DNA of 64,000 nucleotides, taken from positions 2,855 through 66,854 of the forward strand of contig JAIRJZ010000042.1 of the NCBI GenBank assembly GCA_031260355.1. Reading direction: 5' to 3'. Position 1 is the stretch's first letter, and each line of letters opens with the position of its first letter. Origin of the DNA: Burkholderiales bacterium (lineage in GTDB: Bacteria; Pseudomonadota; Gammaproteobacteria; Burkholderiales; Casimicrobiaceae). Shown here piece by piece: positions 1,903 through 58,847 of this stretch. The notes under the pieces are model-generated. The model had not been told where the DNA came from, searched no databases, and was given only the letters and a program-made list of their open reading frames with translations. Both the position numbers and the translations under genes were made by a program.

Positions 1903-2002
1903 GGGTGGCGAGCCGAACCCCCGGCACTTGCACAAACTCGTTAGGGCTGCTTCCTTCCGAACCTGACCCGGTTGGCAAGCGTGCAATGCGGGGCGACCCG
2001 CC
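1903..2002 (-). ncRNA. ffs: Signal recognition particle RNA (4.5S type)
   Basis: Reverse complement reads ggcgggtcgcc...ccgggtcaggttcggaaggaagcagccc...ggctcgccaccc. This carries the conserved domain IV motif GGUCAGGUxCGGAAGGAAGCAGCC with complementary 5'/3' ends, and lies directly upstream of dnaX. Ends are approximate. Confidence 0.85.
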
Positions 2003-11557: not shown

Positions 11558-12882
11558 CAGCGCCGTCCTATCCCAAAATACTCCAACCCCGCTTCGCGCA
11601 CGCTCTGCGGATCGTAGATATTGCGACCGTCGAACAACAACGGTGTTTTGAGCTGTTGGCGAATCGCCGCAAAATCGGGAGAGCGGAACGCCTTCCATTC
11701 CGTCACCAGCACCAGCGCATCGGCGTCGCGCACCGCCTCCATCGCCGAGTTCGCATAAACAATGCTCAGTTCTTCCTGACCGAAAACACGGCGCGCTTCT
11801 TCCATCGCCACCGGGTCGTAGGCAACGACTTGCGCGCCGCGTTGCAGCAGTTCGCGGACGATGATCCGCGACGGCGCTTCGCGCATATCGTCGGTGTTCG
11901 GCTTGAACGCCAGCCCCCACAAAGCGATCGTGCAACCGGACAAATCGTCGCCGAGACGTGCGCAGATTTTTTCGATCAACACATGCTTCTGCCGTTCGTT
12001 GGCGCGTTCGACCGCGGCCAGCACATGAAGCGGCACTCCCGCTTGCGATGCCGTTCGCAACAAGGCTTTGACATCCTTGGGAAAGCAACTGCCGCCGTAA
12101 CCGGAACCGGCGTACAAAAAGTCGTAGCCGATCCGGGGATCGGAACCGATGCCTTGCCGCACCCGCTCGATGTCCACGTCCAGCCGATCCGCCAGATTGG
12201 CCAGTTCGTTCATGAACGAGATGCGCGTCGCCAGCATCGCATTGGCAGCGTATTTGGTGAATTCCGCCGAACGCACATCCATCATCAAGAGCTGTTCGTG
12301 ATTTCCCAGAAACGGCGCATACAACTCCCGCATCACTCGCGCCGCCCGCACATGGTCGGTGCCGATAACGACCCGGGCTGGCGTCATGAAGTCGTCGATG
12401 GCGGCGCCTTCTTTCAGAAACTCCGGATTCGACACCACAGTGAACTCCGCTTGCGAACGGCGAATCTCCAGTTCTTCGGCAATCACGCTCCGTACACGGT
12501 CGGCAGTACCCACCGGCACCGTCGATTTGTCAACGATGATTTTCCATTCCGTCATCCGCCGACCGATGTTGCGCGCCGCTTCCAGCACATACTGCATATC
12601 GGCCGAACCGTCCTCGCCGGGCGGCGTTCCCACCGCGATGAACTGCAACGCCCCGAACGCTACCGCATCATCGATATCGGTCGAAAAATGCATGCGCCCC
12701 GCCGCCACGTTGCGCGCAATCATTTCCTGCAAACCGGGCTCGTGAATCGGCACACCGCCGTTTTGCAGAACGTCGATTTTGCGTTCGTCGATATCGAAAC
12801 ACAATACTTCGTTGCCAACTTCGGCGAAGCACGCCCCCGTCACCAGCCCCACATAGCCGGAACCGATCATGGTGATTTTCAT
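11557..12882 (-). CDS. udg: UDP-glucose 6-dehydrogenase
   Basis: [26 protein letters not shown] (Rossmann fold) and catalytic GGSCFPKD. Confidence 0.93.
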
Positions 12883-14890: not shown

Positions 14891-16612
14891 TCACGTATTG
14901 TCTTTGTTGTCGAGCTTGGCTTTCAGCAGCGCCCCAAGGTTGGTCACGCCAACGCTGCCGGCATTCTCGGTCTTCATCCGCTGCATTGCCTCGCTTTCAT
15001 CGGCACTGTCTTTTTGCTTGACGGACAGGTTGATCGTGCGGTTCTTGCGATCAATGTTGATGATCATCGCCGACACCTTGTCGCCTTCTTTCAAGTGCTG
15101 ACGAATGTCCTCGACCCGGTCGCGCGACAATTCCGACGCCCGCAGATACCCTTCGACTTCGCCTTCGATCAACGTCACCACAGCGCCCTTCGCATCCAAG
15201 CTCTTGACCGTACCCTCGACGATGCTGCCCTTGTCGTTGATCGCCACAAAGTTGGTGAACGGATCGCCTTCAAGCTGCTTGACGCCCAGCGAAATGCGCT
15301 CGCGCTCGACATCGATCGCCAGCACCACCGCCTCGATCTCCTGCCCTTTCCGGTAATCGCGCACCGCCGTTTCTCCCGGCAACGTCCACGACAGGTCGGA
15401 CAGATGCACCAGACCGTCGATGCCGCCCGGCAAACCGATGAAGACGCCGAAATCGGTGATCGACTTGATCGCGCCTTTCACATGGTCGCCCTTCTTGTGG
15501 TTCATCGAGAACTCTTCCCACGGGTTGGGCTTGCACTGCTTCATGCCCAGCGAAATGCGACGGCGTTCCTCGTCGATCTCGAGAATCATCACCTCGACTT
15601 CATCGCCCAGTTGGGTAACCTTGGTCGGGTGAATGTTCTTGTTGGTCCAATCCATCTCGGAAACGTGCACCAGCCCTTCAATGCCCGATTCGACTTCGAC
15701 GAAGGCACCGTAATCGGTGATGTTGGTCACCTTGCCGAACAAATGGGTTCCCGGCGGATAACGGCGCGACAGCCCGCTCCACGGATCGTCACCAAGCTGC
15801 TTGATCCCCAGCGAGACGCGGTTTTTGTCCTGATCGAACTTGAGTACCTTGGCCGTCACCTCATCGCCCACCGCCAACACTTCCGACGTATGCTTGACCC
15901 GGCGCCAAGCCAGATCGGTGATGTGGAGCAGACCGTCAACACCGCCCAGATCGACGAAGGCGCCGTAATCGGTGATGTTTTTGACGATGCCCTTGACGAC
16001 GGCACCTTCGGTCAACGTCGCCATCAGTTTTTCGCGGTCTTCGCCCAGCGACTCTTCCAGCACGGCACGGCGTGATACCACGACGTTGTTGCGCTTCTTG
16101 TCGAGCTTGATGACCTTGAATTCCATCGATTTGTTTTCGTACGGCGACGTGTCCTTGATCGGCCGCACGTCGATCAGCGAACCCGGCAAGAAAGCGCGGA
16201 TGCCGTTCATCATCACCGTCAGGCCGCCCTTGACCTTGCTGGTTACCAGGCCTTGCACCAGCGTTCCTTCTTCCATTGCGATTTCGAGATCCTGCCAGGC
16301 TTTCAGACGTTTGGCCTTGTCGCGCGACAAGCGCGTGGTACCGTAGCCGTCTTCAATCGAATCGATCGCAACCGTGATGAAGTCGCCGGCTTTCACCTCG
16401 ACTTCACCGTTATCGTTCTTGAATTCCTCGATCGGAATGAAACTTTCCGATTTCAAACCGGCGTTGACCACAACAACGTTGTAATCGACCCGGGTCACTT
16501 CAGCGGTGATCAATTCACCTTGCCGCATTTCCTGACGGGCAAGCGACTCTTCAAACAGCGCCGCAAAACTTTCAGAAGCCGCCGGAACAGCGGAGGGAGT
16601 AACAGTAGCCAT
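14891..16612 (-). CDS. rpsA: 30S ribosomal protein S1
   Basis: Six S1 repeats (e.g. [20 protein letters not shown]). MATVTPS...[10 protein letters not shown] start at 16612. Confidence 0.95.
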
Positions 16613-16741
16613 TGGGGTTGGTTCCTTAATGGTTGAGACCGCCGCGCGAGAACCCTGTATCTCGCCGCCGACGGGCCGATTCATAAAATGTTCTTCAACA
16701 GCCGGCTAAAGCTGCGGAGAACCGTTGCTTTTGCAGAAACG

Positions 16742-21909: not shown

Positions 21910-21985
21910 GCCGGTGTAGCTCAGTTGGTAGAGCAGCTCATTCGTAATGAGAAGGTCGGGAGTTCGATTCTCTCTACCGGCACCA
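21910..21985 (+). tRNA. tRNA-Thr (anticodon CGU)
   Basis: Cloverleaf of 76 nt: acceptor gccggtg/taccggc, D arm gctc-agttggta-gagc, anticodon loop ttCGTaa, T arm gggag-ttcgatt-ctctc, encoded CCA. Confidence 0.9.
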
Positions 21986-22240: not shown

Positions 22241-22864
22241 TTATCCAAGTTGTGCTTGCCGCCGCAGCCAAAGGTATTTATTTCGAGCAAATAACCCATA
22301 GTAAGACGCCAAAAACAAACGCCAGCCACGGAGATTGCTGCCACAGTCAAAATGTAGGGACTGCCCGGTGTCGATGTTAAAGTGAACCTCATTGGAACCG
22401 CACCAATCTATCTTAATAACCAAACTATGGGCACCCGTAGAAATCGTGAACTTTGCGGACTTACCGTTGGCGATTTGTCCGATTTCTACTCCGTCGCAAA
22501 TCACACGATATTTACGCAGGTAATCCGCGTAACCACTGTCACGAGAGACAGTGATAAGCGCAGACATCTGCCCACAAATCGCCACCTGTTTTTGTGGACG
22601 TGATCGTTCGCGCAAAATTTCCAGCATTACCATTGAGCAAAAGAAAAAAATAGCAATAACAATCAGGGCAACAATAATAGCAATCGATGCGCTTTCCTCG
22701 CGCGATTCCATCCATCCCTTCACGTTAAAAAAGAATAAGATTAGAGAGCTCATAAGGAAAACCAAAAGGATTTGCACTCTCCGTGCGCGAGCGACGCTAA
22801 ATGACATTGCGGCGATACCGCTGCTGACAATCACGATAAAAAATAATATCTTAATCCAGGTCAT
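22241..22864 (-). CDS. Hypothetical membrane protein (3 N-terminal TM helices + beta-rich C-terminal domain)
   Basis: 207-aa ORF in an AT-rich islet. TM helices ILFFIVIVSSGIAAMSF, ILLVFLMSSLILFFF and IAIIVALIVIAIFFFCSMVML. I recognise no family. Confidence 0.55.
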   Translation of the reverse strand: MTWIKILFFIVIVSSGIAAMSFSVARARRVQILLVFLMSSLILFFFNVKGWMESREESASIAIIVALIVIAIFFFCSMVMLEILRERSRPQKQVAICGQMSALITVSRDSGYADYLRKYRVICDGVEIGQIANGKSAKFTISTGAHSLVIKIDWCGSNEVHFNIDTGQSLHFDCGSNLRGWRLFLASYYGLFARNKYLWLRRQAQLG

Positions 22865-22905
22865 TTCCAGATTCTCCGTTAGCTAATTCCGACAAATCAA
22901 AAACA

Positions 22906-24613: not shown

Positions 24614-26896
24614 TCACGCCTTGAAAAACTCCGCTTTGTCGCCGAGCCAGCGGTCAATCAACGCGACGGCAGCGGCTTCGCCTTCCTCCGTTTTCAACAG
24701 CCGGTCGGCAACGCGACTGGCGCGTTCGAGTAACGCTTCGTCGCGCTCGGGGTCGGCAAAACGCAGCAACGGCACACCGGCTTGCCGCGCCCCCAGCAAC
24801 TCGCCCGGCCCGCGAATGCGCAAATCCTGACGAGCAATTTCAAATCCGTCGTTATTCTCAAAAATCACTTTGAGCCGCTCTTTGGCCGTCGCGCCGAGAG
24901 GCGTTTCGAACAACAGAATGCACTGGCTTTCGCACGCCCCCCGCCCTACCCTCCCGCGCAACTGATGCAGTTGTGCCAAGCCGAAACGTTCGGCGTGCTC
25001 AATCACCATCGTCGAGGCGTTCGCCACATCGACGCCGACTTCGATTACCGTCGTCGCCACCAGAATATGAATGCCGCCGCGCACGAAAGCTTCCATCGTC
25101 GCCGCCTTGTCCGCCGGTTTCATCCGGCCATGCAGCAAGCCGACCTCAAGTTTTGGCAGCGGCTCGCCTTCTGCCGTTTTATTTTCGCCGTCGAACGCCA
25201 CTACCAATTCTTCATACAGCGTTTGCGCCGCCTGCAAACTGAGTTTTTCCGATTCTTCGATCAGCGGACACACCCAATAGGTCTGTGCGCCGTGCTTTGC
25301 CCCCTTTTGAAAGGGGGTGCCCGCCGAAGGTGGGCGGGGGTTTGTTTCGGCTCCCTTCTCCTCTTGTACCCCATCCCCACCCCAACCCCAACCCTCCCCT
25401 TGAAGGGGAGGGGGTTTGCAGCGCTTGCCGACATGCGCGATGATCTCGGCACGGCGTGCCTGGTTGACCAGCCGCGTCGTTACCGGCATGCGCCCCGGCG
25501 GCAATTCGTCGATCACCGACACATCGAGGTCAGCGTAAAAACTCATCGCCAGCGTGCGCGGGATCGGCGTTGCGCTCATCATCAGTTGGTGCACTTCCTC
25601 GACGCCCGCGCCTCTGTCGCGCAACGCCAGCCGCTGCGCCACGCCGAAACGGTGCTGCTCATCGACGATCGCCAGCGTCAGGTTCGGCATCGTCACGCCT
25701 TTCTGAAACAGCGCATGCGTACCGATCGCTAGCACCGGCTCGCCATCAGCCAGCGTCGCCAACGCTTTTTTGTGCTGCGCTGCCGTCAGCGTTCCGGTCA
25801 GCCACACCAGACGCACCGGCAGACCGGCCAGCCACGCTGACAATTTGTGGTAGTGCTGTTCGGCGAGAATTTCCGTCGGCGCCATCAACGCCACTTGCCT
25901 GCCATTTTCCACCGCCCGCAGCGCCGCCAATGCCGCAATCACCGTTTTGCCGGAGCCGACATCGCCCTGCAACAATCGGTGCATCGGAGCGGCGCGGGCA
26001 AGATCGTCGCCGATTTCTTTCCACACCCGCTGCTGCGCCGCCGTCAACGTGAACGGCAAGCGCTGCAACAAAGCGTCGGTCAACACTTCGCGATGGCTCA
26101 ACGCTTCGGCGCGGCGACCGGCGCGCGCCGCCTTGTGCCGCTTCAGCGAAAGCTGCTGCGCCAACAATTCGTCGAACTTGATGCGTTGCCAAGCCGGATG
26201 CGCGTGCGCTGACAATGCCGCCTGCTCTTCTCCCGACAAACCCGGTGGCGGCGCATGCAAAAAATTCAGCGCCTTCGCCCAATCCCACAAACCCTCCTGT
26301 CGGCGTAAGGCTTCCGGCAAGTCATCGCGCAACACCGTTTCTCGTTGCAGGACTCTCGCAATCTGCTTCGTCAACACCTCTTGCGACAAACCGCCGGTCG
26401 TCGGATAAACCGGCGTTAAGCGGTTAGGCAACGGCACGGCACGGCTTGTTGTTGCGCCCAGCGCCATGAACTTCGGATGCACCATCTCCAAACCGAAATG
26501 GCCGTCGCGCACTTCGCCGAACACGCGCACCCGCATACCAATCGTCAACGCTTTCTGCTGGTTCGGGTAAAACGTAAAAAAGCGCAGCGTCAACGCCGTC
26601 ACATGGTTTTCTTCGCCGCTCTCTATCGCGCAAACCCACTGCCGCCGCGGTCGGTAACGCACTTCGCTCGCCGTCACCACCCCCTCGGTACACACCGACA
26701 TCCCGGCGTGCAATTGCGCCAGCGGCACCCGCGTCGTGTAATCCTCGTAGCGCAGCGGCAAGTGCAGCGCCAAATCCGCTTCATGAACGATACCCAACCG
26801 CGCCAATCGTGCCGCCAGCAAAGAACGCTTGTCCTCACGCGGCTTCGTTACAGGCCGCGTTACTACCGGTGGCGGATGCGAAGTTTCGGTGGTCAT
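24614..26896 (-). CDS. recG: ATP-dependent DNA helicase RecG (carries an in-frame repeat-derived insertion)
   Basis: Wedge domain plus helicase motifs (GDVGSGKT, DEQHRFG, MSATPIPRT, QLRGRVGRG). 760 aa, about 40 aa longer than expected because of the insert at 25295..25420. Confidence 0.93.
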   Translation of the reverse strand: MTTETSHPPPVVTRPVTKPREDKRSLLAARLARLGIVHEADLALHLPLRYEDYTTRVPLAQLHAGMSVCTEGVVTASEVRYRPRRQWVCAIESGEENHVTALTLRFFTFYPNQQKALTIGMRVRVFGEVRDGHFGLEMVHPKFMALGATTSRAVPLPNRLTPVYPTTGGLSQEVLTKQIARVLQRETVLRDDLPEALRRQEGLWDWAKALNFLHAPPPGLSGEEQAALSAHAHPAWQRIKFDELLAQQLSLKRHKAARAGRRAEALSHREVLTDALLQRLPFTLTAAQQRVWKEIGDDLARAAPMHRLLQGDVGSGKTVIAALAALRAVENGRQVALMAPTEILAEQHYHKLSAWLAGLPVRLVWLTGTLTAAQHKKALATLADGEPVLAIGTHALFQKGVTMPNLTLAIVDEQHRFGVAQRLALRDRGAGVEEVHQLMMSATPIPRTLAMSFYADLDVSVIDELPPGRMPVTTRLVNQARRAEIIAHVGKRCKPPPLQGEGWGWGGDGVQEEKGAETNPRPPSAGTPFQKGAKHGAQTYWVCPLIEESEKLSLQAAQTLYEELVVAFDGENKTAEGEPLPKLEVGLLHGRMKPADKAATMEAFVRGGIHILVATTVIEVGVDVANASTMVIEHAERFGLAQLHQLRGRVGRGACESQCILLFETPLGATAKERLKVIFENNDGFEIARQDLRIRGPGELLGARQAGVPLLRFADPERDEALLERASRVADRLLKTEEGEAAAVALIDRWLGDKAEFFKA
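25297..25414. repeat. Repeat units A (25297..25345) and B (25369..25414) embedded in recG
   Basis: A is ttgcccccttttgaaagggggtgcccgccgaaggtgggcgggggtttgt (two hairpins). B is ccccatccccaccccaaccccaaccctccccttgaaggggagggg. B copies occur in intergenic DNA, and an A copy occurs in the mtfA-like gene. Confidence 0.85.
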
Positions 26897-26937
26897 GGTG
26901 TAGAGCGAGCGCCTCTCACATCCACAGACTTTTTACG

Positions 26938-27113
26938 CTCTCCCCTTGAGGGAAGAGACGCGGCATTGCGAGAAGCAAAGCGACGAAGCAATCCAGATTT
27001 TCCCCTTCCCCTTCAAGGGGAAGGTTGGGATGGGGATGAGGTTTCATGGTTAGGCTCTATCTCGATTGATTCGGGCGGATTCTGCGACTCCGCTTCGCTG
27101 CGCGCAGAATGAC
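26938..27113. repeat. Stack of four different palindromic units in the ridA-recG spacer
   Basis: The four units are: hairpin ctctccccttgagggaagag (26938..26957); R3 (26959..26996); inverted unit B (27001..27041); inverted R2 (27077..27113). Confidence 0.8.
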
Positions 27114-27210
27114 GACGTTCCCACCCCCTCTACCTCAAGGGAAAATGGAGAAAAAGCGCGATACCGCTTTGTCCGCCTTCTCACAGAAATGCTCACAGAA
27201 ACGTATTCAC

Positions 27211-27865: not shown

Positions 27866-27941
<76 letters not shown>

Positions 27942-28789: not shown

Positions 28790-29686
28790 ATGAGCCCCAT
28801 TGAAGAACTTCTGACTGTACGTGACTGGCTGCGCTGGGCGGTGTCCCGGTTCAACCAAGCCCGACTGCACTTCGGCCACGGCAGCGACAATGCTTTTGAC
28901 GAAGCCGCCTATTTGATCGCCCACACACTGCCCCTGCCGCTCGAACAACTCGACTCTTTTCTCGACGCCCGATTGACGCAGTCTGAAAAGTTACGGCTTT
29001 GTAAAATGCTGGATCGGCGGGTTGTGGAACGCATTCCCGCCGCCTACCTCACTCAGGAAGCTTGGCTCGGCGATTTTCGTTTTTATGTTGACGAGCGCGT
29101 CATCGTTCCGCGCTCCTTCATCGCCGAATTGTTGCCCGATGGGTTATCGCCGTATCTGCCCGACCACCACGATGTCAAAAACGCGCTCGACCTGTGTACC
29201 GGCTCCGGCTGCCTCGCCATTCTGCTGGCCGTAACGTATCCCGACGCCGAAATCGACGCTGTCGATATTTCACCGGCGGCGCTCGCCGTCGCCCAACGCA
29301 ACATCAGCGACTATGACTTGTCCGGTCGAATTGACCTGATTCGCTCCGATTACACCGACAACCTGCCGAGCGATAAGCGCTACGACCTGATTGTCAGCAA
29401 CCCGCCCTATGTCACCGACGACTCCATGCAAAACCTGCCGCGCGAATACCGCCATGAGCCAGAACTGGCGCTGGCTGGCGGCGTTGACGGCCTTAACGCC
29501 GTTCATCACATTCTGCAAAACGCCCGCCGCCTGCTGCGACCGCACGGCATCGCCGTCGTCGAGATCGGCCACAACCGCGCGCTGGTCGAAGCGGCTTATC
29601 CGCGGTTGCCTTTTGTCTGGCTCGACACCGGCTCGTCGGAAGAGTCGGTCTTTTTGTTGAAGCACGAAGATTTGCCGGAATCGTGA
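28790..29686 (+). CDS. prmB: 50S ribosomal protein L3 glutamine N5-methyltransferase
   Basis: MSPIEELLTVRDWLRWAVSRFNQARLHFGHGSDNAFDEAAYL, SAM motif LDLCTGSGC, and catalytic NPPY. Confidence 0.88.
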   Translation: MSPIEELLTVRDWLRWAVSRFNQARLHFGHGSDNAFDEAAYLIAHTLPLPLEQLDSFLDARLTQSEKLRLCKMLDRRVVERIPAAYLTQEAWLGDFRFYVDERVIVPRSFIAELLPDGLSPYLPDHHDVKNALDLCTGSGCLAILLAVTYPDAEIDAVDISPAALAVAQRNISDYDLSGRIDLIRSDYTDNLPSDKRYDLIVSNPPYVTDDSMQNLPREYRHEPELALAGGVDGLNAVHHILQNARRLLRPHGIAVVEIGHNRALVEAAYPRLPFVWLDTGSSEESVFLLKHEDLPES

Positions 29687-30615
29687 GACCACATCGGTTC
29701 CCACCGATAAAATAACCGGAAGCATTCGTAAACGTCGGGGTAGGTTTCGCGCAAGCGTATCGAAGCAACAAAAAAAGTTTCCGACAACACCGCGAAAAAT
29801 TCCGCCGGATCTTCCGCCGCATAAGGATCAATGTCGAGGTCTTCTTCTGCATCAACGCGCCGGCAAAAATCGTCGTAAGCGCGCTCCATCGTCTGCTGCC
29901 AGTAAGCCGCCGACAATTCCGGCGGCAGCGGCGGGCAACCGTTGGCTTCGCCGTTCTTCATGTCGAGCTTGTGAACAAACTCGTGGATCACAACATTGAC
30001 CGCCGGCATGTCGTACTTTCCTCCCCTCTCCCCTTGGGGGAGGGGAGAGGGGGGAAATGATCGCACCTCCCCCTCTTCCGCCATTGCCCCCTTTTCAAAG
30101 GGGGTGGCCGCCGAAGGCGGACGGGGGTTTGTATCAGGGCACCCTCCCCCGCAAGGTAGGAGGGAATAAATATCACGTTCGCGGCCGGCGTCCAGCGCAT
30201 CCGGCCAGGACAACACCACCGGCCCTCCCGGCATCGCTTCACCCATGATCGGCGCGTCGTCTCGATGGATGACGCCGTCTTCATCTTCCCATTCGGCGTA
30301 GGTGATGAACTCGTCAGGGCACAGCACGACCGTCTCAAAATCGTCGTACCATTCAAGCCCCAATTTCAACACGGGAATACACGCCTGAACGGCCACGACC
30401 GTCCGCTGAAACGGCGTGACCGCGAAACCGCGCGCGCCAACGATATTTTTGTCGCACAAGAACAGCACACTCATCGCGCGCAGTGCTTCCAACTCGCCCT
30501 TCGGCCAATCGGCGAGGAACGGCAACGCCGTCAACGCTTCTTGCCACAACGCTTCCGGAACCGCGTACCGCTGCAAGATCCGCGCGCGGCGCCAGCGGGA
30601 AAAAAGTCCCATCAT
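29596..30615 (-). CDS. mtfA: MtfA-like zinc peptidase (M90 family) with an in-frame repeat-derived insertion
   Basis: HEFVHKLD zinc motif, with conserved PFLADWPKGELEALR and AEFFAVLSETFF regions. The ATG overlaps the rmuC stop. The 3' end overlaps prmB by about 90 nt. Confidence 0.75.
   Translation of the reverse strand: MMGLFSRWRRARILQRYAVPEALWQEALTALPFLADWPKGELEALRAMSVLFLCDKNIVGARGFAVTPFQRTVVAVQACIPVLKLGLEWYDDFETVVLCPDEFITYAEWEDEDGVIHRDDAPIMGEAMPGGPVVLSWPDALDAGRERDIYSLLPCGGGCPDTNPRPPSAATPFEKGAMAEEGEVRSFPPSPLPQGERGGKYDMPAVNVVIHEFVHKLDMKNGEANGCPPLPPELSAAYWQQTMERAYDDFCRRVDAEEDLDIDPYAAEDPAEFFAVLSETFFVASIRLRETYPDVYECFRLFYRWEPMWSHDSGKSSCFNKKTDSSDEPVSSQTKGNRG
30021..30164. repeat. Composite hairpin element (C hairpin 30021..30054, unit A 30084..30132, D hairpin 30140..30164) embedded in the mtfA-like gene
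   Basis: The left and right hairpins match the intergenic composites at 49436, 51353 and 54638. Unit A is about 90% identical to the recG copy. Confidence 0.85.
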
Positions 30616-39843: not shown

Positions 39844-39964
39844 CTCTGAACAACCTTGCTATCCCCCGCTTGTCATCCTGCGCGAAGTCGCAGGATCCAC
39901 GCGGCGTCTGGATTCTGCGACTTCGCTTCGCTACGCGCAGAATGACAGGAAGGGGTTTTCAGAG
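39844..39964 (+). mobile_element. 121-bp MITE-like element with terminal inverted repeats (ctctgaacaac...ggttttcagag) enclosing two REP hairpins
   Basis: A second copy lies in opposite orientation at 58727..58847, roughly 85-90% identical by eye. It has no coding capacity. Confidence 0.7.
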
Positions 39965-49360: not shown

Positions 49361-49435
49361 GGTGTTTTTCTTTGGTTTCTTTATTCAGCGCGGCTTGAAT
49401 GGGTGCATTTCTGCAAGGCCGCACCGCGCTTTGTT

Positions 49436-49575
49436 CTCCCCCTCTCCCCCTGGGGGAGAGGGGCCGGGGGAGAGGGGAGAGAAAACAATTGTTCCCCTCT
49501 CCCGCCCCTTTGGGGCACCCTCCCCCGCAAGGGGGGAGGGTAAAAATATCCGCGCTGAAACACGCACATTTGAAA
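49436..49575 (+). repeat. Composite G/C-run hairpin element (C hairpin ... D hairpin ... gcacatttgaaa tail), copy 1
   Basis: ctccccctctccccctgggggagagggg...caccctcccccgcaaggggggaggg. Lies in the modB-modC spacer. Confidence 0.8.
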
Positions 49576-50269: not shown

Positions 50270-50323
50270 AAGGATTTTCGCTCGAATGTGTGGCGAACCG
50301 TCCCGGGAACTCCGAAGATAACG

Positions 50324-50436
50324 CCCCTCTCCCCTGGAGGGAGAGGGGTTGGGGAGAGGGGGAATAATTTCGCATTTCCTCTGTTCTGCGCTAACAACCC
50401 CTCTCCCGCAAGGGGAGAGAGGAACAGTGCATGTTT
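50324..50436 (+). repeat. Composite hairpin element, divergent copy
   Basis: cccctctcccctggagggagaggggttggggagaggggg...cccctctcccgcaaggggagagagg...gtgcatgtttg. Lies in the modA-modB spacer. Confidence 0.7.
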
Positions 50437-51290: not shown

Positions 51291-51352
51291 CAATGACTCC
51301 TTGAGCGCAAGAAAAGCCGCAATCCGGTACTGCGATGGCGCGCCGAGCTTTG

Positions 51353-51477
51353 CCCCCCTCTCCCCTTGAGGGAGAGGGGCTGGGGGAGGGGGGGGAAACA
51401 ATCCCTTCCCCCCTCTCCCGCCCCGTCGGGACACCCTCCCCCTCGAGGGGGGAGGGTGAAAAGTGTGCGCATTTGAA
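51353..51477 (+). repeat. Composite hairpin element, copy 2
   Basis: cccccctctccccttgagggagaggggctggggga...caccctccccctcgaggggggagggtgaaaagtgtgcgcatttgaa. Lies upstream of modA. Confidence 0.8.
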
Positions 51478-51730: not shown

Positions 51731-52786
51731 ATGGCTCTCCCCCCCGATGCCCACTGCACTCTGGCTCAACGGGTCGAGGCCGACGAAATCATCGACGTAC
51801 GCTCTCCCGTCGAATTTGCCGAAGACCACCTTCCCGGCGCCCGCAATTGTCCCGTTCTGAGCAATGAAGAGCGCACTGCCGTCGGCACGCTTTACCAAAG
51901 CTCCCCTTTTGCAGCACGCAAAGTCGGGGCGGCAATGGTTGCCCATAACATCGCCCGTTGCCTCGACAGCGAACTTGCCAACCGTCCCAAAAGCTGGCGA
52001 CCGTTCGTGTACTGCTGGCGCGGCGGCATGCGCAGCGCCAGCTTCGTTACCTGGCTGCGGCTGATCGGCTGGCGCGCCGTGCAACTGACCGGCGGCTACA
52101 AGACTTGGCGCCACCACGTGCTGCAAACCCTGACCGATTTGCCGCCACGCTTCCGTTGGCGCGTCATCTGCGGCCCCACCGGTAGCGCCAAAACCCGGCT
52201 GTTGGCAGCCTTAGCCGCCGGTGGAGAGCAAACGCTCGACCTCGAGGCGCTGGCCGCTCACAAGGGTTCCGTCCTCGGAGCGCTACCGGATACCCCGCAG
52301 CCCTCCCAGCGAGCGTTCGAAACGCGGCTTTCGGAAGCGCTGGTCGCGCTCGACCCGGCGCGCCCGGTTTACGTCGAAGCCGAGAGTCGCAAGATCGGCC
52401 GGATCGCATTGCCCAACGCCCTGATCGACACGATGCACAACGCCGATTGCCTCGAACTGTTGCCGTCGCCGGAAGTGCGGCTGCGTTACCTGCTCAACGA
52501 TTACGCTTACTTTGGGCAAAACCCGCAAGATTTGTGCGATCAGTTGGAGCGGCTCAAGGGCTTCATCGACAACGCCGCGCTGGAACGCTGGAAGCAGTGG
52601 GCGCAAAACGGCAACTTACCCGACCTTTTTGCCGAACTGCTCGCCCGCCATTACGACCCGCTGTACGCCCGCTCGCAATACCGCCATTTCAGCAAACTGC
52701 ATAACGCGCCGCGTTTTTATCCCGATGATTTGTCGAATGCCGCTTTGGCGGCACTGGCGGGAAAAATCGCTGGAAAAACAGATTAA
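51731..52786 (+). CDS. mnmH: tRNA 2-selenouridine(34) synthase
   Basis: Rhodanese domain with YCWRGGMRS active-site loop and P-loop CGPTGSAKT. Confidence 0.88.
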   Translation: MALPPDAHCTLAQRVEADEIIDVRSPVEFAEDHLPGARNCPVLSNEERTAVGTLYQSSPFAARKVGAAMVAHNIARCLDSELANRPKSWRPFVYCWRGGMRSASFVTWLRLIGWRAVQLTGGYKTWRHHVLQTLTDLPPRFRWRVICGPTGSAKTRLLAALAAGGEQTLDLEALAAHKGSVLGALPDTPQPSQRAFETRLSEALVALDPARPVYVEAESRKIGRIALPNALIDTMHNADCLELLPSPEVRLRYLLNDYAYFGQNPQDLCDQLERLKGFIDNAALERWKQWAQNGNLPDLFAELLARHYDPLYARSQYRHFSKLHNAPRFYPDDLSNAALAALAGKIAGKTD

Positions 52787-52872
52787 CAGGAACCTGTGCC
52801 GCCCGCCGTTACGACCCGGTTACCCGCACGTTTGCAATACCGCCATTTCTACTAGAGGACTTAAACATCGTT

Positions 52873-54546
52873 ATGCAGGACTTGAACAGTATCAAACAGT
52901 TGCCGTGGTTCAAAAAACTGAGGGCGAAACTCGTTATCAAAAGCCATTGGTTCATTTTATTGACAGGGCTGTATTTCACGTTTGTTCTGAATTGCAGTTT
53001 GTGGCGCTTTGTCTTTGACAACCTTGAAATCACCAATTTCGCCGTCTTTGTTTTTGCGCTTTCGCTGCCGTTCTTCGTCTTTGTGCCGCTATACGTTTTT
53101 CTTAACCTGATCGTCGCTCCTTATATTGCCAAACCGCTTCTGATTTTCTTCATCCTGGTTTCCAGCGCAACAAATTACCTGATGTACAACCTGGGCGTGT
53201 TTATCGATTCGGATATGGTGCGCAACGCCTTTGAAACGAATACGCGAGAAGCTTTTGACTTGGTTACTTTTTCCGGCTTTGCGTGGGTTTTGATCACCGG
53301 AATGATACCGGGCACCCTCATTTTCATGGCAACCATCAAATACCAGCCATGGAAAAAGGAAATCACCAAGCGGGTTGTTTGTGTTTTGGCGGCGCTGTTG
53401 GTCATGGGAGGGTTTGCGGCAACTTCCTATAAGGAATACGCCTCTTTCGGCCGCAACCACCACGAAGTACGAAAAATATTAAATACTGTCAACTACACGT
53501 ATTCAACCGTGCGCTATTTCCAAAGACAAGCCTTGGCAAACAGGACTTTCAAACGCCTGGATGAAAATGCCTTGCTTGTTCCTTTTAAAGATCCGCATAT
53601 AACTTTACTGGTTCTTGTTGTAGGAGAAACCGCGCGCGCCAAAAATTTTTCGCTCTATGGATATGAAAAAGAAACAAATCCGCTATTGAAAAAACAGGAC
53701 ATCATTCCTTTTGCCCAAATGACTTCGTGCGGAACGTCGACAGCAATTTCCTTGCCGTGCATGTTTTCGTACAGGGCACGCACGGATTTTGACGCGACAG
53801 ACGCCAAATACACAGAAAACTTGCTGGACCTTGCGCAAACCGCCGGATATAAAATCTTGTGGCTCGAAAACGACGATGGGTGCAAAGAGGTATGCCGCCG
53901 TGTCGAAACTCAGTATATGGTTAAAATCAATAACCCGAAGTATTGCAACGGCAAGTATTGCCTTGACGAAGCGTTGCTGGACGGCTTGCCGGAAATCATT
54001 GCCGGCCTCAAAGAAGATACCGTCATTGTTTTGCACACGATGGGGAGCCATGGGCCGACTTACTACGAACGCTATCCCGACAGCTTCAGGAAGTTCACGC
54101 CAACCTGCGACACGGCGAACATTCAGAACTGTACACAGGAGCAGGTTATCAATACCTACGACAATACGATTCTTTATACGGACTATATCATTTCCTCCGT
54201 GATTGACATGCTGAAAAGGCATCCTGAATACGAATCCGGTTTGATTTATGTGTCCGATCATGGTGAATCTCTGGGAGAAAACAACATCTATTTGCACGGC
54301 TTCCCCTACAAGCTGGCGCCGAAAGAGCAAACACATGTACCGATGATTTTGTGGATGAGCGAAACCATGAAGCGGTGGGATTATGTGGACTATGATTGCC
54401 TGCGCGAAGAAGCCTCCCAAAACTCTTACTCTCACGACAACTTGTTTCATTCCATTATCGGGTTACTGGAAATCAAGACGCATCCCTACAACAAGGAATA
54501 CGACATCCTCAAAGACTGTCGGACGAAAGAGCTGTTCAGTGAGTAA
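52873..54546 (+). CDS. eptA: Phosphoethanolamine--lipid A transferase (EptA/MCR family)
   Basis: Five N-terminal TM helices plus a sulfatase-fold domain with VVGETARA, catalytic-Thr motif SCGTSTA, GSHGPTYYERYP and VSDHGESLGEN. Markedly AT-rich. Confidence 0.88.
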   Translation: MQDLNSIKQLPWFKKLRAKLVIKSHWFILLTGLYFTFVLNCSLWRFVFDNLEITNFAVFVFALSLPFFVFVPLYVFLNLIVAPYIAKPLLIFFILVSSATNYLMYNLGVFIDSDMVRNAFETNTREAFDLVTFSGFAWVLITGMIPGTLIFMATIKYQPWKKEITKRVVCVLAALLVMGGFAATSYKEYASFGRNHHEVRKILNTVNYTYSTVRYFQRQALANRTFKRLDENALLVPFKDPHITLLVLVVGETARAKNFSLYGYEKETNPLLKKQDIIPFAQMTSCGTSTAISLPCMFSYRARTDFDATDAKYTENLLDLAQTAGYKILWLENDDGCKEVCRRVETQYMVKINNPKYCNGKYCLDEALLDGLPEIIAGLKEDTVIVLHTMGSHGPTYYERYPDSFRKFTPTCDTANIQNCTQEQVINTYDNTILYTDYIISSVIDMLKRHPEYESGLIYVSDHGESLGENNIYLHGFPYKLAPKEQTHVPMILWMSETMKRWDYVDYDCLREEASQNSYSHDNLFHSIIGLLEIKTHPYNKEYDILKDCRTKELFSE

Positions 54547-54637
54547 AACAGCGAGATAACCGGAATAAGCCGGCGCTCTTGAGTTAGAGCAGTTTTGATT
54601 TAAGCGATTACTCCCTGCGACGGCGAGCAGCACTTCG

Positions 54638-54759
54638 CTCCCCTCTCCCCTTGAGGGAGAGGGGCTGGGGGAGAGGGGTGAAGTTTTCTCTCCCCCTCTC
54701 CCGCCCCTTCGGGCCACCCTCCCCCTCGAGGGGGGAGGGAAAAAGTGTAAGCATTTGAA
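54638..54759 (+). repeat. Composite hairpin element, copy 3
   Basis: ctcccctctccccttgagggagaggggctgggggagagggg...caccctccccctcgaggggggagggaaaaagtgtaagcatttgaac. Confidence 0.8.
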
Positions 54760-56696: not shown

Positions 56697-56866
56697 CCCT
56701 CCCCTTCAAGGGGAGGGTTAGGGTGGGGATGGGTTTGTTCTATTGTGCACATGCTGAAAATTCTGATCGACTTTTTTCATTGATTTGTCCGCACACAAAT
56801 CTCTTCGTTACCGTGTAAGTACGACGCCCCCCATCCCCACCCCGACCCTCCCCTTGAAGGGGAGGG
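56697..56866. repeat. Inverted pair of unit B (56697..56733 and 56827..56866) flanking a ~90-bp AT-rich core
   Basis: ccctccccttcaaggggagggttagggtggggatggg ... ccccccatccccaccccgaccctccccttgaaggggaggg. Lies in the nrdR-ribD spacer. Confidence 0.75.
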
Positions 56867-58726: not shown

Positions 58727-58847
58727 CTCTGAATAACCCTCCTGTCATTCTGCGCGTAGCGAAGCGAAGTCGCAGAATCCATGCAGTGTGTGGATCCTGC
58801 GACTTCGCGCAGGATGACAAAGCGGGGGAATGCGGAGTTATTCAGAG
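58727..58847 (-). mobile_element. 121-bp MITE-like element, second copy (inverted relative to 39844..39964)
   Basis: ctctgaataac...gttattcagag termini, with the same two internal REP hairpins. Confidence 0.7.

What the first reader, a model, noticed from the sequence alone, without database searches (positions are those of the whole stretch)
25295..25420. Intergenic-type palindromic repeat units inserted in-frame inside the RecG helicase gene
The recG ORF is intact, but it carries an extra segment of about 41 aa: KPPPLQGEGWGWGGDGVQEEKGAETNPRPPSAGTPFQKGAKH. The segment lies between ...AHVGKRC and GAQTYWVCPLIEESE, which is the start of the second RecA-like lobe. From memory, E. coli RecG has only a handful of residues at this point. 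At DNA level the segment is two hairpin-forming repeat units. Unit B recurs in three intergenic places (27001, 56697, 56827). Unit A recurs about 90% identical inside a second, unrelated gene (30084..30132), in the same orientation and the same reading frame (TNPRPPSA[G/A]TPF[Q/E]KGA). This is the behaviour known for Rickettsia palindromic elements, which colonise ORFs without breaking them. I do not know it to be described for this G/C-run element family.
Basis: partly seen in the sequence, partly recalled or inferred. Interest (0 to 1): 0.7.

Follow-up and report, generated by a model that had tools for sequence, protein, structure and literature searches.

The report
Palindromic repeat DNA translated inside RecG
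A 126-base array of short hairpin-forming repeat units, of a kind that is mostly intergenic in this termite-gut bacterial lineage, sits in-frame in a loop of the RecG helicase gene and adds 40 residues predicted to be disordered; this behaviour is already known from Rickettsia and from REP elements in other bacteria.

Summary
recG (24614..26896, minus strand) is intact and carries 42 codons (25292..25417). E. coli RecG and the four closest orthologues have 2 residues there.

The segment is a mosaic of repeat modules:
- Unit B is a hairpin plus a G-run. It has three intergenic copies in the window.
- Unit A is a 44-nt double hairpin. Its only other window copy lies in-frame inside an M90/MtfA peptidase gene, nested in a third repeat element.

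Related termite-gut genomes and metagenomes gave 93 distinct unit A copies. About 10% lie inside bona fide genes (recG, mfd, folC, gpmI, tsaE, a methyltransferase, a Mu-type transposase).

AlphaFold2 models the RecG insert as low-confidence coil between a helix and a strand of the second RecA-like lobe.

The units carry no GTAG or CGTC tag. They are not the repeats that flank the lineage's own RAYT transposase, so how they move is unknown.

In-frame REP insertions, including in DNA-repair genes, are published (Ogata 2000; Di Nocera 2013). This is a new member of a known kind, of moderate interest.

The parts
24614..26896 (-). recG gene, 760 codons, intact
   Evidence: Pfam RecG_wedge, DEAD, Helicase_C and RecG_dom3_C. 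E 6e-174 to E. coli RecG 9wm0_A. The model's best fold match is RecG 1gm5_A.
25292..25417 (-). In-frame repeat array of 126 nt (42 codons), where the closest orthologues have 6 nt
   Evidence: pLDDT is below 50 for residues 505-532 and no secondary structure is assigned.
25392..25412 (.). Unit B hairpin, the palindrome CCCTCCCCTT-G-AAGGGGAGGG
   Evidence: Perfect 9-bp stem. Family members at 27004, 56697 and 56846.
25369..25391 (-). Unit B G-run tail (GGGTTGGGGTTGGGGTGGGGATGGGG on the recG sense strand). It fits the G-quadruplex sequence motif.
25344..25368 (-). Linker TACAAGAGGAGAAGGGAGCCGAAAC. Its ...AGCCGAAAC end recurs upstream of unit A in other copies.
25300..25343 (-). Unit A core of 44 nt. 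Hairpin 1 (GCCCACC-TTC-GGCGGGC) is at 25319-25335 and hairpin 2 (CCCCCTT-TCAA-AAGGGGG) at 25300-25317.
   Evidence: 93 family copies were found. Stem covariation. This copy has an A-C mismatch at stem pair 13/21.
25292..25299 (-). Right extension CAAAGCAC. It resembles the CAAAGCGCGG... that follows unit A in several other copies.
29596..30615 (-). M90/MtfA zinc peptidase gene, 339 codons, intact. This is the second host of unit A.
   Evidence: Pfam Peptidase_M90 split into two stretches. Alignment to Klebsiella MtfA 3dl1.
30016..30186 (-). 57 codons with no counterpart in Klebsiella MtfA, just before the HEFVH motif. The segment is repeat element C with unit A (30087-30130) nested inside it.
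27004..27038 (+). Intergenic unit B copy in the 314-nt repeat-filled ridA-recG spacer
   Evidence: The same spacer is 4 nt in the syntenic relative L068.
56697..56731 (+). Intergenic unit B copy
56832..56866 (-). Intergenic unit B copy, inverted relative to the copy at 56697
   Evidence: I4.
49417..49550 (.). Intergenic copy of element C (two C/G-run hairpins with G-run and C-run between them)
50302..50424 (.). Element C copy in the modA-modB spacer
51333..51466 (.). Element C copy upstream of the modA start
54618..54749 (.). Intergenic copy of element C

Best explanation
The extra 42 codons in recG are repeat DNA, not native RecG sequence. This lineage (uncultured termite-gut Burkholderiales) carries families of short, modular, hairpin-forming repeats rich in C-runs and G-runs. 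They sit mainly between genes and join into mosaic arrays.

One such array (unit B hairpin plus G-run, a linker, and the unit A double hairpin) lies inside recG. It sits at a loop between helix 479-493 and the strand that begins the YWVCPL motif in the second RecA-like lobe. Its length keeps the reading frame and it has no stop codon, so it is read through as a Pro/Gly-rich loop predicted to be disordered.

Inferred: that loop lies at the N-terminal end of a beta-strand, on the side of the lobe away from the ATP and DNA face. The insert is therefore most likely a tolerated passenger rather than a functional module. Most insertions into genes would be removed by selection. The survivors are in-frame, stop-free, in one orientation, without the T-run that follows many intergenic copies, and in variable loops.

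How the units are copied is not shown. They have no GTAG or CGTC tag and are not the repeats that flank the lineage's RAYT transposase. The options are mobilisation in trans by an unidentified enzyme that recognises single-stranded hairpins, or copying by recombination or template switching between arrays.
For: Shown:
1. Orthologue comparison. Four of the five closest RecG proteins have 2 residues at the site. The closest, P0002, has TGC GCC GAT GGC where the window has TGC plus 126 nt plus GGC.
2. The segment consists of repeats found elsewhere in the window, with none expected by chance.
3. Wider census. Unit A has 93 distinct copies in termite-gut genomes and metagenomes, and about 90% are outside genes.
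4. Other hosts. In-frame unit A arrays also occur in Pfam-confirmed mfd, folC, iPGM, tsaE, Methyltransf_28 and a Mu transposase, and in MtfA in the window.
5. Hairpin 1 is kept by compensatory changes. Pairs 14/20 and 12/22 are Watson-Crick in 93 of 93 copies, each with three pair types. The covariation score is 0.163 against 0.046 in shuffles, reached by 0 of 500. The search pattern left those positions free.
6. The AlphaFold2 model has mean pLDDT 80.8, but the insert is coil with pLDDT below 50 at residues 505-532.
7. The 41-residue peptide has no credible relatives among 1.84 billion representative proteins.
8. All helicase motifs remain conserved in the alignment.
Against: - No expression, read-level or population data exist here, so translation of the insert is inferred from the intact ORF only.
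- 'Neutral passenger' is an inference. The same recG site is filled in a second lineage (P0003), with unit A in the same orientation and frame. That could mean targeting or function rather than mere tolerance.
- No target-site duplication or terminal inverted repeat was identified at the recG junctions, so transposition as such is unproven.
- Folding energy of the insert is not unusual for its composition (RNA z -0.56, DNA z -1.64).
Confidence: 0.88

Rival explanations
1. The array was retained because it does something. It might add a selected flexible loop to RecG, or act at the RNA or DNA level (a G-quadruplex-type G-run and stable hairpins on the sense strand) to tune recG expression.
For: The same recG site is filled in two lineages whose sister taxa have it empty. 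Unit A is in the same orientation in all roughly 10 genic copies, and the TNPRPPSA.TPFEKGA frame is used in 6 of 9. The sense strand carries GGGGTTGGGGTGGGGATGGGG. Two related SF2 repair helicases, RecG and Mfd, are both hosts. Di Nocera et al. 2013 (PMC3733652) also noted an excess of DNA-repair genes among REP hosts.
Against: The hosts are functionally unrelated: MtfA, FolC, iPGM, TsaE, a methyltransferase and a transposase. The closest orthologues do without the insert. The window's unit A copy has a stem mismatch, consistent with decay. The insert is modelled as low-confidence coil. Array composition differs between the two recG alleles.
Confidence: 0.08
2. The insert is an assembly artefact: a repeat-induced mis-join or collapsed repeat in a metagenome-assembled contig.
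For: The window comes from a MAG contig seen only once (cluster of 1 member, 1 contig). No second contig encoding exactly this protein is on record. Short repeats are a known cause of assembly errors.
Against: Both flanks are contiguous recG sequence in the same frame, and the insert length is a multiple of three. A chance mis-join would have to land on the same codon on both sides. The analogous filled recG allele P0003 was assembled independently on 5 contigs from JGI, ENA and NCBI samples. The second in-frame array in MtfA and six more in relatives show the same pattern.
Confidence: 0.03
3. The segment is a native, lineage-specific RecG linker that only resembles the repeats, or was itself the source of them.
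For: The site tolerates length variation. P0076 has an unrelated 30-residue segment there, and a second loop downstream also varies.
Against: The nearest orthologue (91% identical) has 2 residues at the site. The DNA is 92% identical to a copy in an unrelated gene and matches about 90 mostly intergenic copies. No protein family matches the peptide.
Confidence: 0.01

Closest known systems
Rickettsia palindromic elements (RPE; Ogata et al. 2000 Science 290:347 and 2002 Genome Res 12:808, as summarised in PMC10969869 and PMC3733652)
   Same: Palindromic repeat DNA found both between genes and in-frame inside many unrelated housekeeping genes. It is translated with the host protein, and the cited papers predict the insertions to be compatible with the host protein's fold.
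   Different: The taxon differs (termite-gut Burkholderiales, not Rickettsia). The units are much shorter (21-44 nt modules against about 100-150 bp) and combine into mosaics. Only about 10% of unit A copies are genic, against nearly half for some RPE families. Sequence relatedness to RPEs was not tested.
Intragenic GTAG- and CGTC-tagged REPs (Di Nocera, De Gregorio, Rocco 2013, PMC3733652)
   Same: Short G+C-rich hairpin repeats that are mainly intergenic, often in dimers or clusters, with a minority inside ORFs. Hosts often include DNA replication and repair genes (uvrABCD, recBCD, polA, dnaE2). Clusters encode 43-82 residues in Thauera and R. conorii. [quoted passage not shown]
   Different: Units A, B and C have no GTAG or CGTC tag. 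The RAYT gene found in the lineage is flanked by a different, classical GTAG REP. In the parts of the paper I read, recG and mfd are not among the hosts named.
Bacterial interspersed mosaic elements (BIMEs) of E. coli (from memory: Gilson et al. 1991)
   Same: Arrays built from several short motif types (palindromic units plus linker motifs) in variable order and orientation.
   Different: BIMEs are described as extragenic. The motifs here are unrelated in sequence and do enter ORFs.
MITEs with in-frame ORF fusions (ERIC, Coxiella QMITE1, Anabaena MITEs; review PMC10969869)
   Same: Small non-autonomous repeats that sometimes fuse in-frame with host genes.
   Different: No terminal inverted repeats typical of a parent IS and no target-site duplication were identified here.

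Membership tests
Rickettsia palindromic elements (RPE) | In-frame insertion in several unrelated, otherwise intact protein-coding genes | tested here: met
   recG and MtfA in the window. recG, mfd, folC, iPGM, tsaE, Methyltransf_28 and a Mu transposase in relatives.
Rickettsia palindromic elements (RPE) | Palindromic sequence able to form hairpins | tested here: met
   Perfect 7-12 bp stems. Compensatory changes in unit A hairpin 1.
Rickettsia palindromic elements (RPE) | Sequence membership in RPE-1 to RPE-10, in Rickettsia genomes | not tested
   No RPE consensus was compared. The host is a Burkholderiales MAG and the units are 21-44 nt, against about 100-150 bp for RPEs (PMC10969869). So I claim the behaviour, not family membership.
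Rickettsia palindromic elements (RPE) | Insert lies at a surface or loop position compatible with the host fold | tested here: met
   Prediction only. The insert is coil with pLDDT below 50 between H479-493 and E538-542, and the rest of RecG is modelled well. The MtfA insert lies in a loop that varies in length among homologues.
GTAG/CGTC-tagged REPs mobilised by RAYT | 20-40 bp imperfect palindrome, high copy number, mainly intergenic | tested here: met
GTAG/CGTC-tagged REPs mobilised by RAYT | Conserved unpaired GTAG or CGTC tetranucleotide at one end | tested here: not met
   The upstream consensus of unit A is G.AAC and the downstream consensus is CTTT or C[AG][AG]. Units B and C show no such tag. 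The window does hold separate CGTC-tagged REPs of another family.
GTAG/CGTC-tagged REPs mobilised by RAYT | A RAYT gene flanked by the same repeats (REPtron) | tested here: not met
   A RAYT homologue lies at L082 4506-5033, found with E. coli RayT recalled from memory (53% identity, E 5e-61). It is flanked by GTAGCCCGGATAAGCGAAGCGCCATCCGGG repeats, not by units A, B or C. Only about 1.1 Mb of the lineage was searched.
MITE | Terminal inverted repeats related to those of a parent insertion sequence | tested here: inconclusive
   Element C has similar palindromic hairpins at both ends (I17). Unit A has none. No parent IS was sought.
MITE | Target-site duplication flanking the insert | tested here: inconclusive
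   Filled and empty recG sites were compared. GCAAA occurs at both ends of the array, but it is part of unit A in other copies and its register does not restore the empty site. The intergenic spacers are too diverged to align.
BIME-type mosaic arrays | Several distinct short motifs combined in variable order and orientation | tested here: met
   Unit A is nested in element C in MtfA. Unit A is preceded by different hairpin modules and followed by CTTCGCG-type or CTGA-type short repeats in different copies. A shared layout is seen in four genic arrays.

The most novel reading that the evidence does not exclude
The untagged C/G-run hairpin modules are moved by a strand-specific and partly site-specific mechanism that has not been described and is distinct from RAYT/GTAG-REP transposition. 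This would explain three observations:
- the same codon of recG is filled in two lineages whose sister taxa have it empty;
- every genic copy has the same orientation;
- two related repair helicases, RecG and Mfd, are both hit.
The right extension of unit A (CAAAGCGCGGCGCA) shares GGCGCA with the native recG target, which hints at insertion guided by microhomology.
Probability: 0.12. Interest if true: 0.65.

Novelty: new member of a known kind. Interest (0 to 1): 0.35.

Why it matters
It adds a clear, multi-gene example outside Rickettsia of selfish palindromic DNA being translated inside essential housekeeping proteins. It comes from an uncultured gut symbiont lineage, and the repeat family lacks the tags that define the REP superfamilies studied so far.

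Practical consequences:
- The sites mark naturally permissive loops in RecG, Mfd, MtfA, FolC, iPGM and TsaE.
- Annotators should expect lineage-specific low-complexity 'domains' in MAG proteins that may really be repeat DNA.
- The paired filled and empty recG sites in sister taxa are a tractable system for asking how such repeats are gained and lost.

It does not change what is known about RecG function.

Tried and rejected
- Folding energies. The insert folds no better than shuffles of the same composition (RNA z -0.56, DNA z -1.64). The evidence for structure therefore comes from the palindromes and from covariation, not from energy.
- Rfam. No family matches any repeat; only SRP RNA and two tRNAs were found.
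- Protein-level census of the insert peptide. phmmer against 1.84 billion representatives gave 2 weak repetitive hits. A longer profile returned only 3 short unnamed proteins and missed known carriers. So no host-gene census could be made that way.
- Intergenic unit A as a transcription terminator. About half of the copies are followed by a T-run. But orientation relative to the upstream gene is 24 same against 25 opposite, using my own crude gene calls. I dropped the idea.
- Target-site duplication. None is convincing at the recG junctions. ridA-recG spacers from five genomes are too diverged to define the boundaries of unit B.
- Recent transfer of the filled allele between lineages. The 240-nt flanks follow the species tree, so there is no sign of it.
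- Looking up the window's own RecG on other contigs found nothing on record. The window's genome is not in the genome or metagenome collections that were scanned.
- Intein or intron. I considered and rejected these on size (42 codons) and because the sequence is made entirely of repeats.
Full report
**1. What is in the sequence**

The ORF at window 24614..26896 (minus strand, 760 codons) is a complete RecG. It has Pfam RecG_wedge, DEAD, Helicase_C and RecG_dom3_C domains and matches E. coli RecG 9wm0_A at E 6e-174.

In that alignment the match breaks at query 493 (E. coli 479) and resumes at query 535 (E. coli 482). Against T. maritima RecG 1gm5 it breaks at 488 (570) and resumes at 534 (576).

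The unmatched stretch is KPPPLQGEGWGWGGDGVQEEKGAETNPRPPSAGTPFQKGAKH. That is 42 codons at 25292..25417.

**2. It is an insertion relative to close relatives**

A search of about 5.8 billion proteins shows that the window comes from a public Burkholderiales MAG contig of 68,356 bp. The protein is MDR0770452.1, annotated simply as RecG.

- Among the five closest orthologues, P0002, P0004, P0005 and P0006 have two residues (AD, AE, AD, VD) between the conserved Cys and Gly.
- At DNA level the closest, P0002 in locus L001, reads TGC GCC GAT GGC. The window reads TGC, then 126 nt, then GGC. The net gain is 120 nt.
- P0003 is filled at the same site with 40 residues that end in ANPRPSSTATPFEKGA. It also has a second repeat-derived insert in a downstream loop.
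- P0003 was assembled on 5 contigs from JGI, ENA and NCBI samples, which argues against assembly artefacts for this kind of insert.

**3. The insert is made of dispersed repeats**

On the recG sense strand the array reads as follows:
- unit B hairpin (CCCTCCCCTT-C-AAGGGGAGGG);
- a G-run tail (TTGGGGTTGGGGTGGGGATGGGG);
- a 25-nt linker ending AGCCGAAAC;
- the 44-nt unit A core (AAACCCCCG CCCACC TTCG GCGGG CACCCCCTTT C AAAAGGGGG);
- a right extension, CAAAGCAC.

Unit B with its tail recurs at 27004, 56697 and 56832, all intergenic, with none expected by chance.

Unit A occurs only once more in the window, at 30087-30130, again with none expected by chance and at BLAST E 4e-14. That copy lies inside an intact M90/MtfA peptidase gene (29596..30615, minus strand), in the same orientation and reading frame.

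**4. The MtfA case**

Against Klebsiella MtfA 3dl1, 57 residues (144-200; window 30016..30186) have no counterpart. They lie just before the HEFVH zinc motif.

All 120 listed homologues are 247-302 residues long, against 339 here. The nearest ones carry a shorter acidic variable loop at that point.

The DNA is a full copy of a third repeat, element C. This element has two C/G-run hairpins with a G-run and a C-run between them. Four other copies are intergenic, at 49417, 50302, 51333 and 54618. Two of these flank modA. In MtfA, unit A sits nested inside element C as an extra block of about 40 nt. Unit A is therefore a separable module.

A scan for C/G-run hairpins and for repeat-derived peptide motifs found no further genic copies in the window.

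**5. The family beyond the window**

I scanned one genome per GTDB species with a unit A pattern that leaves the hairpin 1 stem free. It found 62 loci. Nearly all are in termite-gut MAGs: Cu122P3bin14, Pcu381_bin7, Pmx449_bin24 and Cu122P4bin11. Cu122 is Cubitermes ugandensis (PMC7024585). JGI metagenomes added 67 more stretches. After removing duplicates there are 93 distinct copies.

About 10 copies lie in genes confirmed by Pfam on both sides of the insert:
- recG (twice) and MtfA;
- Mfd, FolC, iPGM and TsaE, the last with an array of about 95 residues;
- a Methyltransf_28 protein and a Mu-type transposase.

The rest are intergenic or ambiguous.

All genic copies have the same orientation. 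Six use the TNPRPPSA.TPFEKGA frame and three the KPPSAFGGHPLSKGG frame. Five of the six frames are stop-free, read from the sequence, so this is a real though modest bias. Intergenic copies show no orientation bias relative to neighbouring genes (24 against 25).

Genic copies are followed by C[AG][AG]..., never by the T-run seen after many intergenic copies.

**6. Hairpin constraint**

In hairpin 1, pairs 14/20 and 12/22 are Watson-Crick in 93 of 93 copies, each with three pair types. On the 21 distinct sequences, 4 pairs change on both sides. The covariation score is 0.163 against 0.046 in shuffles, reached by 0 of 500. The window's recG copy carries an A-C mismatch in this stem.

Folding energy of the whole insert is not exceptional for its composition. 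No Rfam family matches.

**7. Effect on the protein**

An AlphaFold2 model built from 82 sequences has mean pLDDT 80.8. Its best fold match is RecG 1gm5_A.

The insert is coil with pLDDT below 50 at residues 505-532. It lies between helix 479-493 and strand 538-542 of the second RecA-like lobe. Loops at the N-terminal ends of strands in such folds generally face away from the nucleotide-binding cleft. This is inference from general knowledge of alpha/beta folds, not a test.

All conserved helicase positions are intact. The peptide has no credible relatives among 1.84 billion representative proteins, so it is not a protein domain.

**8. One origin or two for the recG insert**

In a neighbour-joining tree, the window pairs with P0002 (91% identity) and P0003 pairs with P0006 (92%). 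Each pair has one filled and one empty site. The flanking DNA follows this tree.

So there were either two gains at one codon, or one old gain followed by at least three precise losses. The two arrays share a layout (G-run, ACAA, hairpin or its remnant, GCCGAARC, unit A), but so do the arrays in gpmI and MtfA. The data do not decide between the two histories.

**9. Mechanism**

A RAYT homologue exists in the lineage at L082 4506-5033. I found it with E. coli RayT recalled from memory (53% identity, E 5e-61). It is flanked by classical GTAG REPs of a different sequence.

Units A, B and C have no GTAG or CGTC tag. No target-site duplication could be defined. How they are mobilised is therefore unknown. 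I infer either trans-mobilisation through hairpins or recombinational copying between arrays, followed by strong selective filtering of genic insertions.

**10. Comparison with what is known, and verdict**

RPEs in Rickettsia are the classic case of in-frame palindromic repeats (Ogata 2000 and 2002, as reviewed in PMC10969869). Di Nocera et al. 2013 (PMC3733652) extended this to GTAG and CGTC REPs in many bacteria:
- hosts enriched in DNA repair genes;
- clusters encoding 43-82 residues;
- inserts at about the same recB site in two Xanthomonas species.

The present case behaves the same way but involves an untagged, modular repeat family in an uncultured termite-gut lineage. I file it as a new member of a known kind. 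Interest is moderate at 0.35. There is a small chance (about 0.12) that the recurrent site and the uniform orientation reflect a targeted insertion mechanism that has not yet been described.

Noticed in passing
window 3988, 4423, 4511, 9668, 27107, 48521, 61218; also 39863-39953 and 58737-58827: A separate repeat family has the CGTC tag of Di Nocera's CGTC REPs: CGTCATTCCGGC-GAAA-GCCGGAAT and CGTCATTCTGCGC...GCGCAGAAT. It includes a 91-nt inverted pair that is 89% complementary and 18.8 kb apart. All copies appear to be intergenic.
   Followed up: partly
L082 4506-5033 (minus strand) and L081 986-1513: A RAYT-type tyrosine transposase gene lies in the related termite-gut lineage. It is flanked on both sides by tandem and inverted GTAG REPs (GTAGCCCGGATAAGCGAAGCGCCATCCGGG), which makes it a classical REPtron. 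That REP was not found in the window.
   Followed up: partly
window 25369-25389, 49452-49477, 50339-50362, 51370-51395, 54655-54678, 56710-56728, 56827-56848: Seven of the eleven G-quadruplex-type motifs in the 64 kb window lie in the repeat modules. One of them is on the sense strand inside recG.
   Followed up: partly
L002 about 11650-11800 (recG of P0003): The Cu122 RecG has a second repeat-derived insert (PPLQGEEQEVGMGSDGSENGALIPSPPTPLPQGERG) in a downstream loop, where the window has DGENKTAEGEPLPKLE.
   Followed up: partly
L054 3281-4171 (TsaE) and L035 2203-3828 (FolC): TsaE in the relative carries an array of about 95 residues made of several repeat modules, between the TLVEEY and YHFDFYR motifs. 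FolC carries two separate arrays, and unit A appears there in two different frames back to back.
   Followed up: partly
window 26897-27210 compared with L068 9997-10001: The ridA-recG spacer is 314 nt and is filled with at least four different repeat modules in the window. It is 4 nt in a syntenic relative with the same RmuC-MtfA-PrmC-RidA-RecG gene order.
   Followed up: yes
window 50302-50424 and 51333-51466: Element C copies sit in the modA leader and in the modA-modB spacer of a molybdate transporter operon. They could affect its expression.
   Followed up: no
window 15275-15991: Three direct repeats at 261-nt spacing lie inside the 605-codon ORF 14891-16705. They look like internal domain repeats of a protein, possibly ribosomal protein S1. 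The gene's identity was not checked.
   Followed up: no
window 1904-2002 (-), 21910-21982 (+), 27866-27938 (+): Rfam finds a small SRP RNA and two tRNA genes.
   Followed up: no
window 22241-22882 and 52729-54546: Two ORFs have atypical composition for this window (GC3 of 0.49 and 0.58, against about 0.70 elsewhere). They may be foreign genes.
   Followed up: no
L012 (JAITED010000121.1, labelled Propionibacteriaceae MAG): One unit A copy, with several compensatory stem changes, lies on a 3.2-kb contig binned to an actinobacterial MAG. This is probably a binning error rather than a true cross-phylum occurrence.
   Followed up: no
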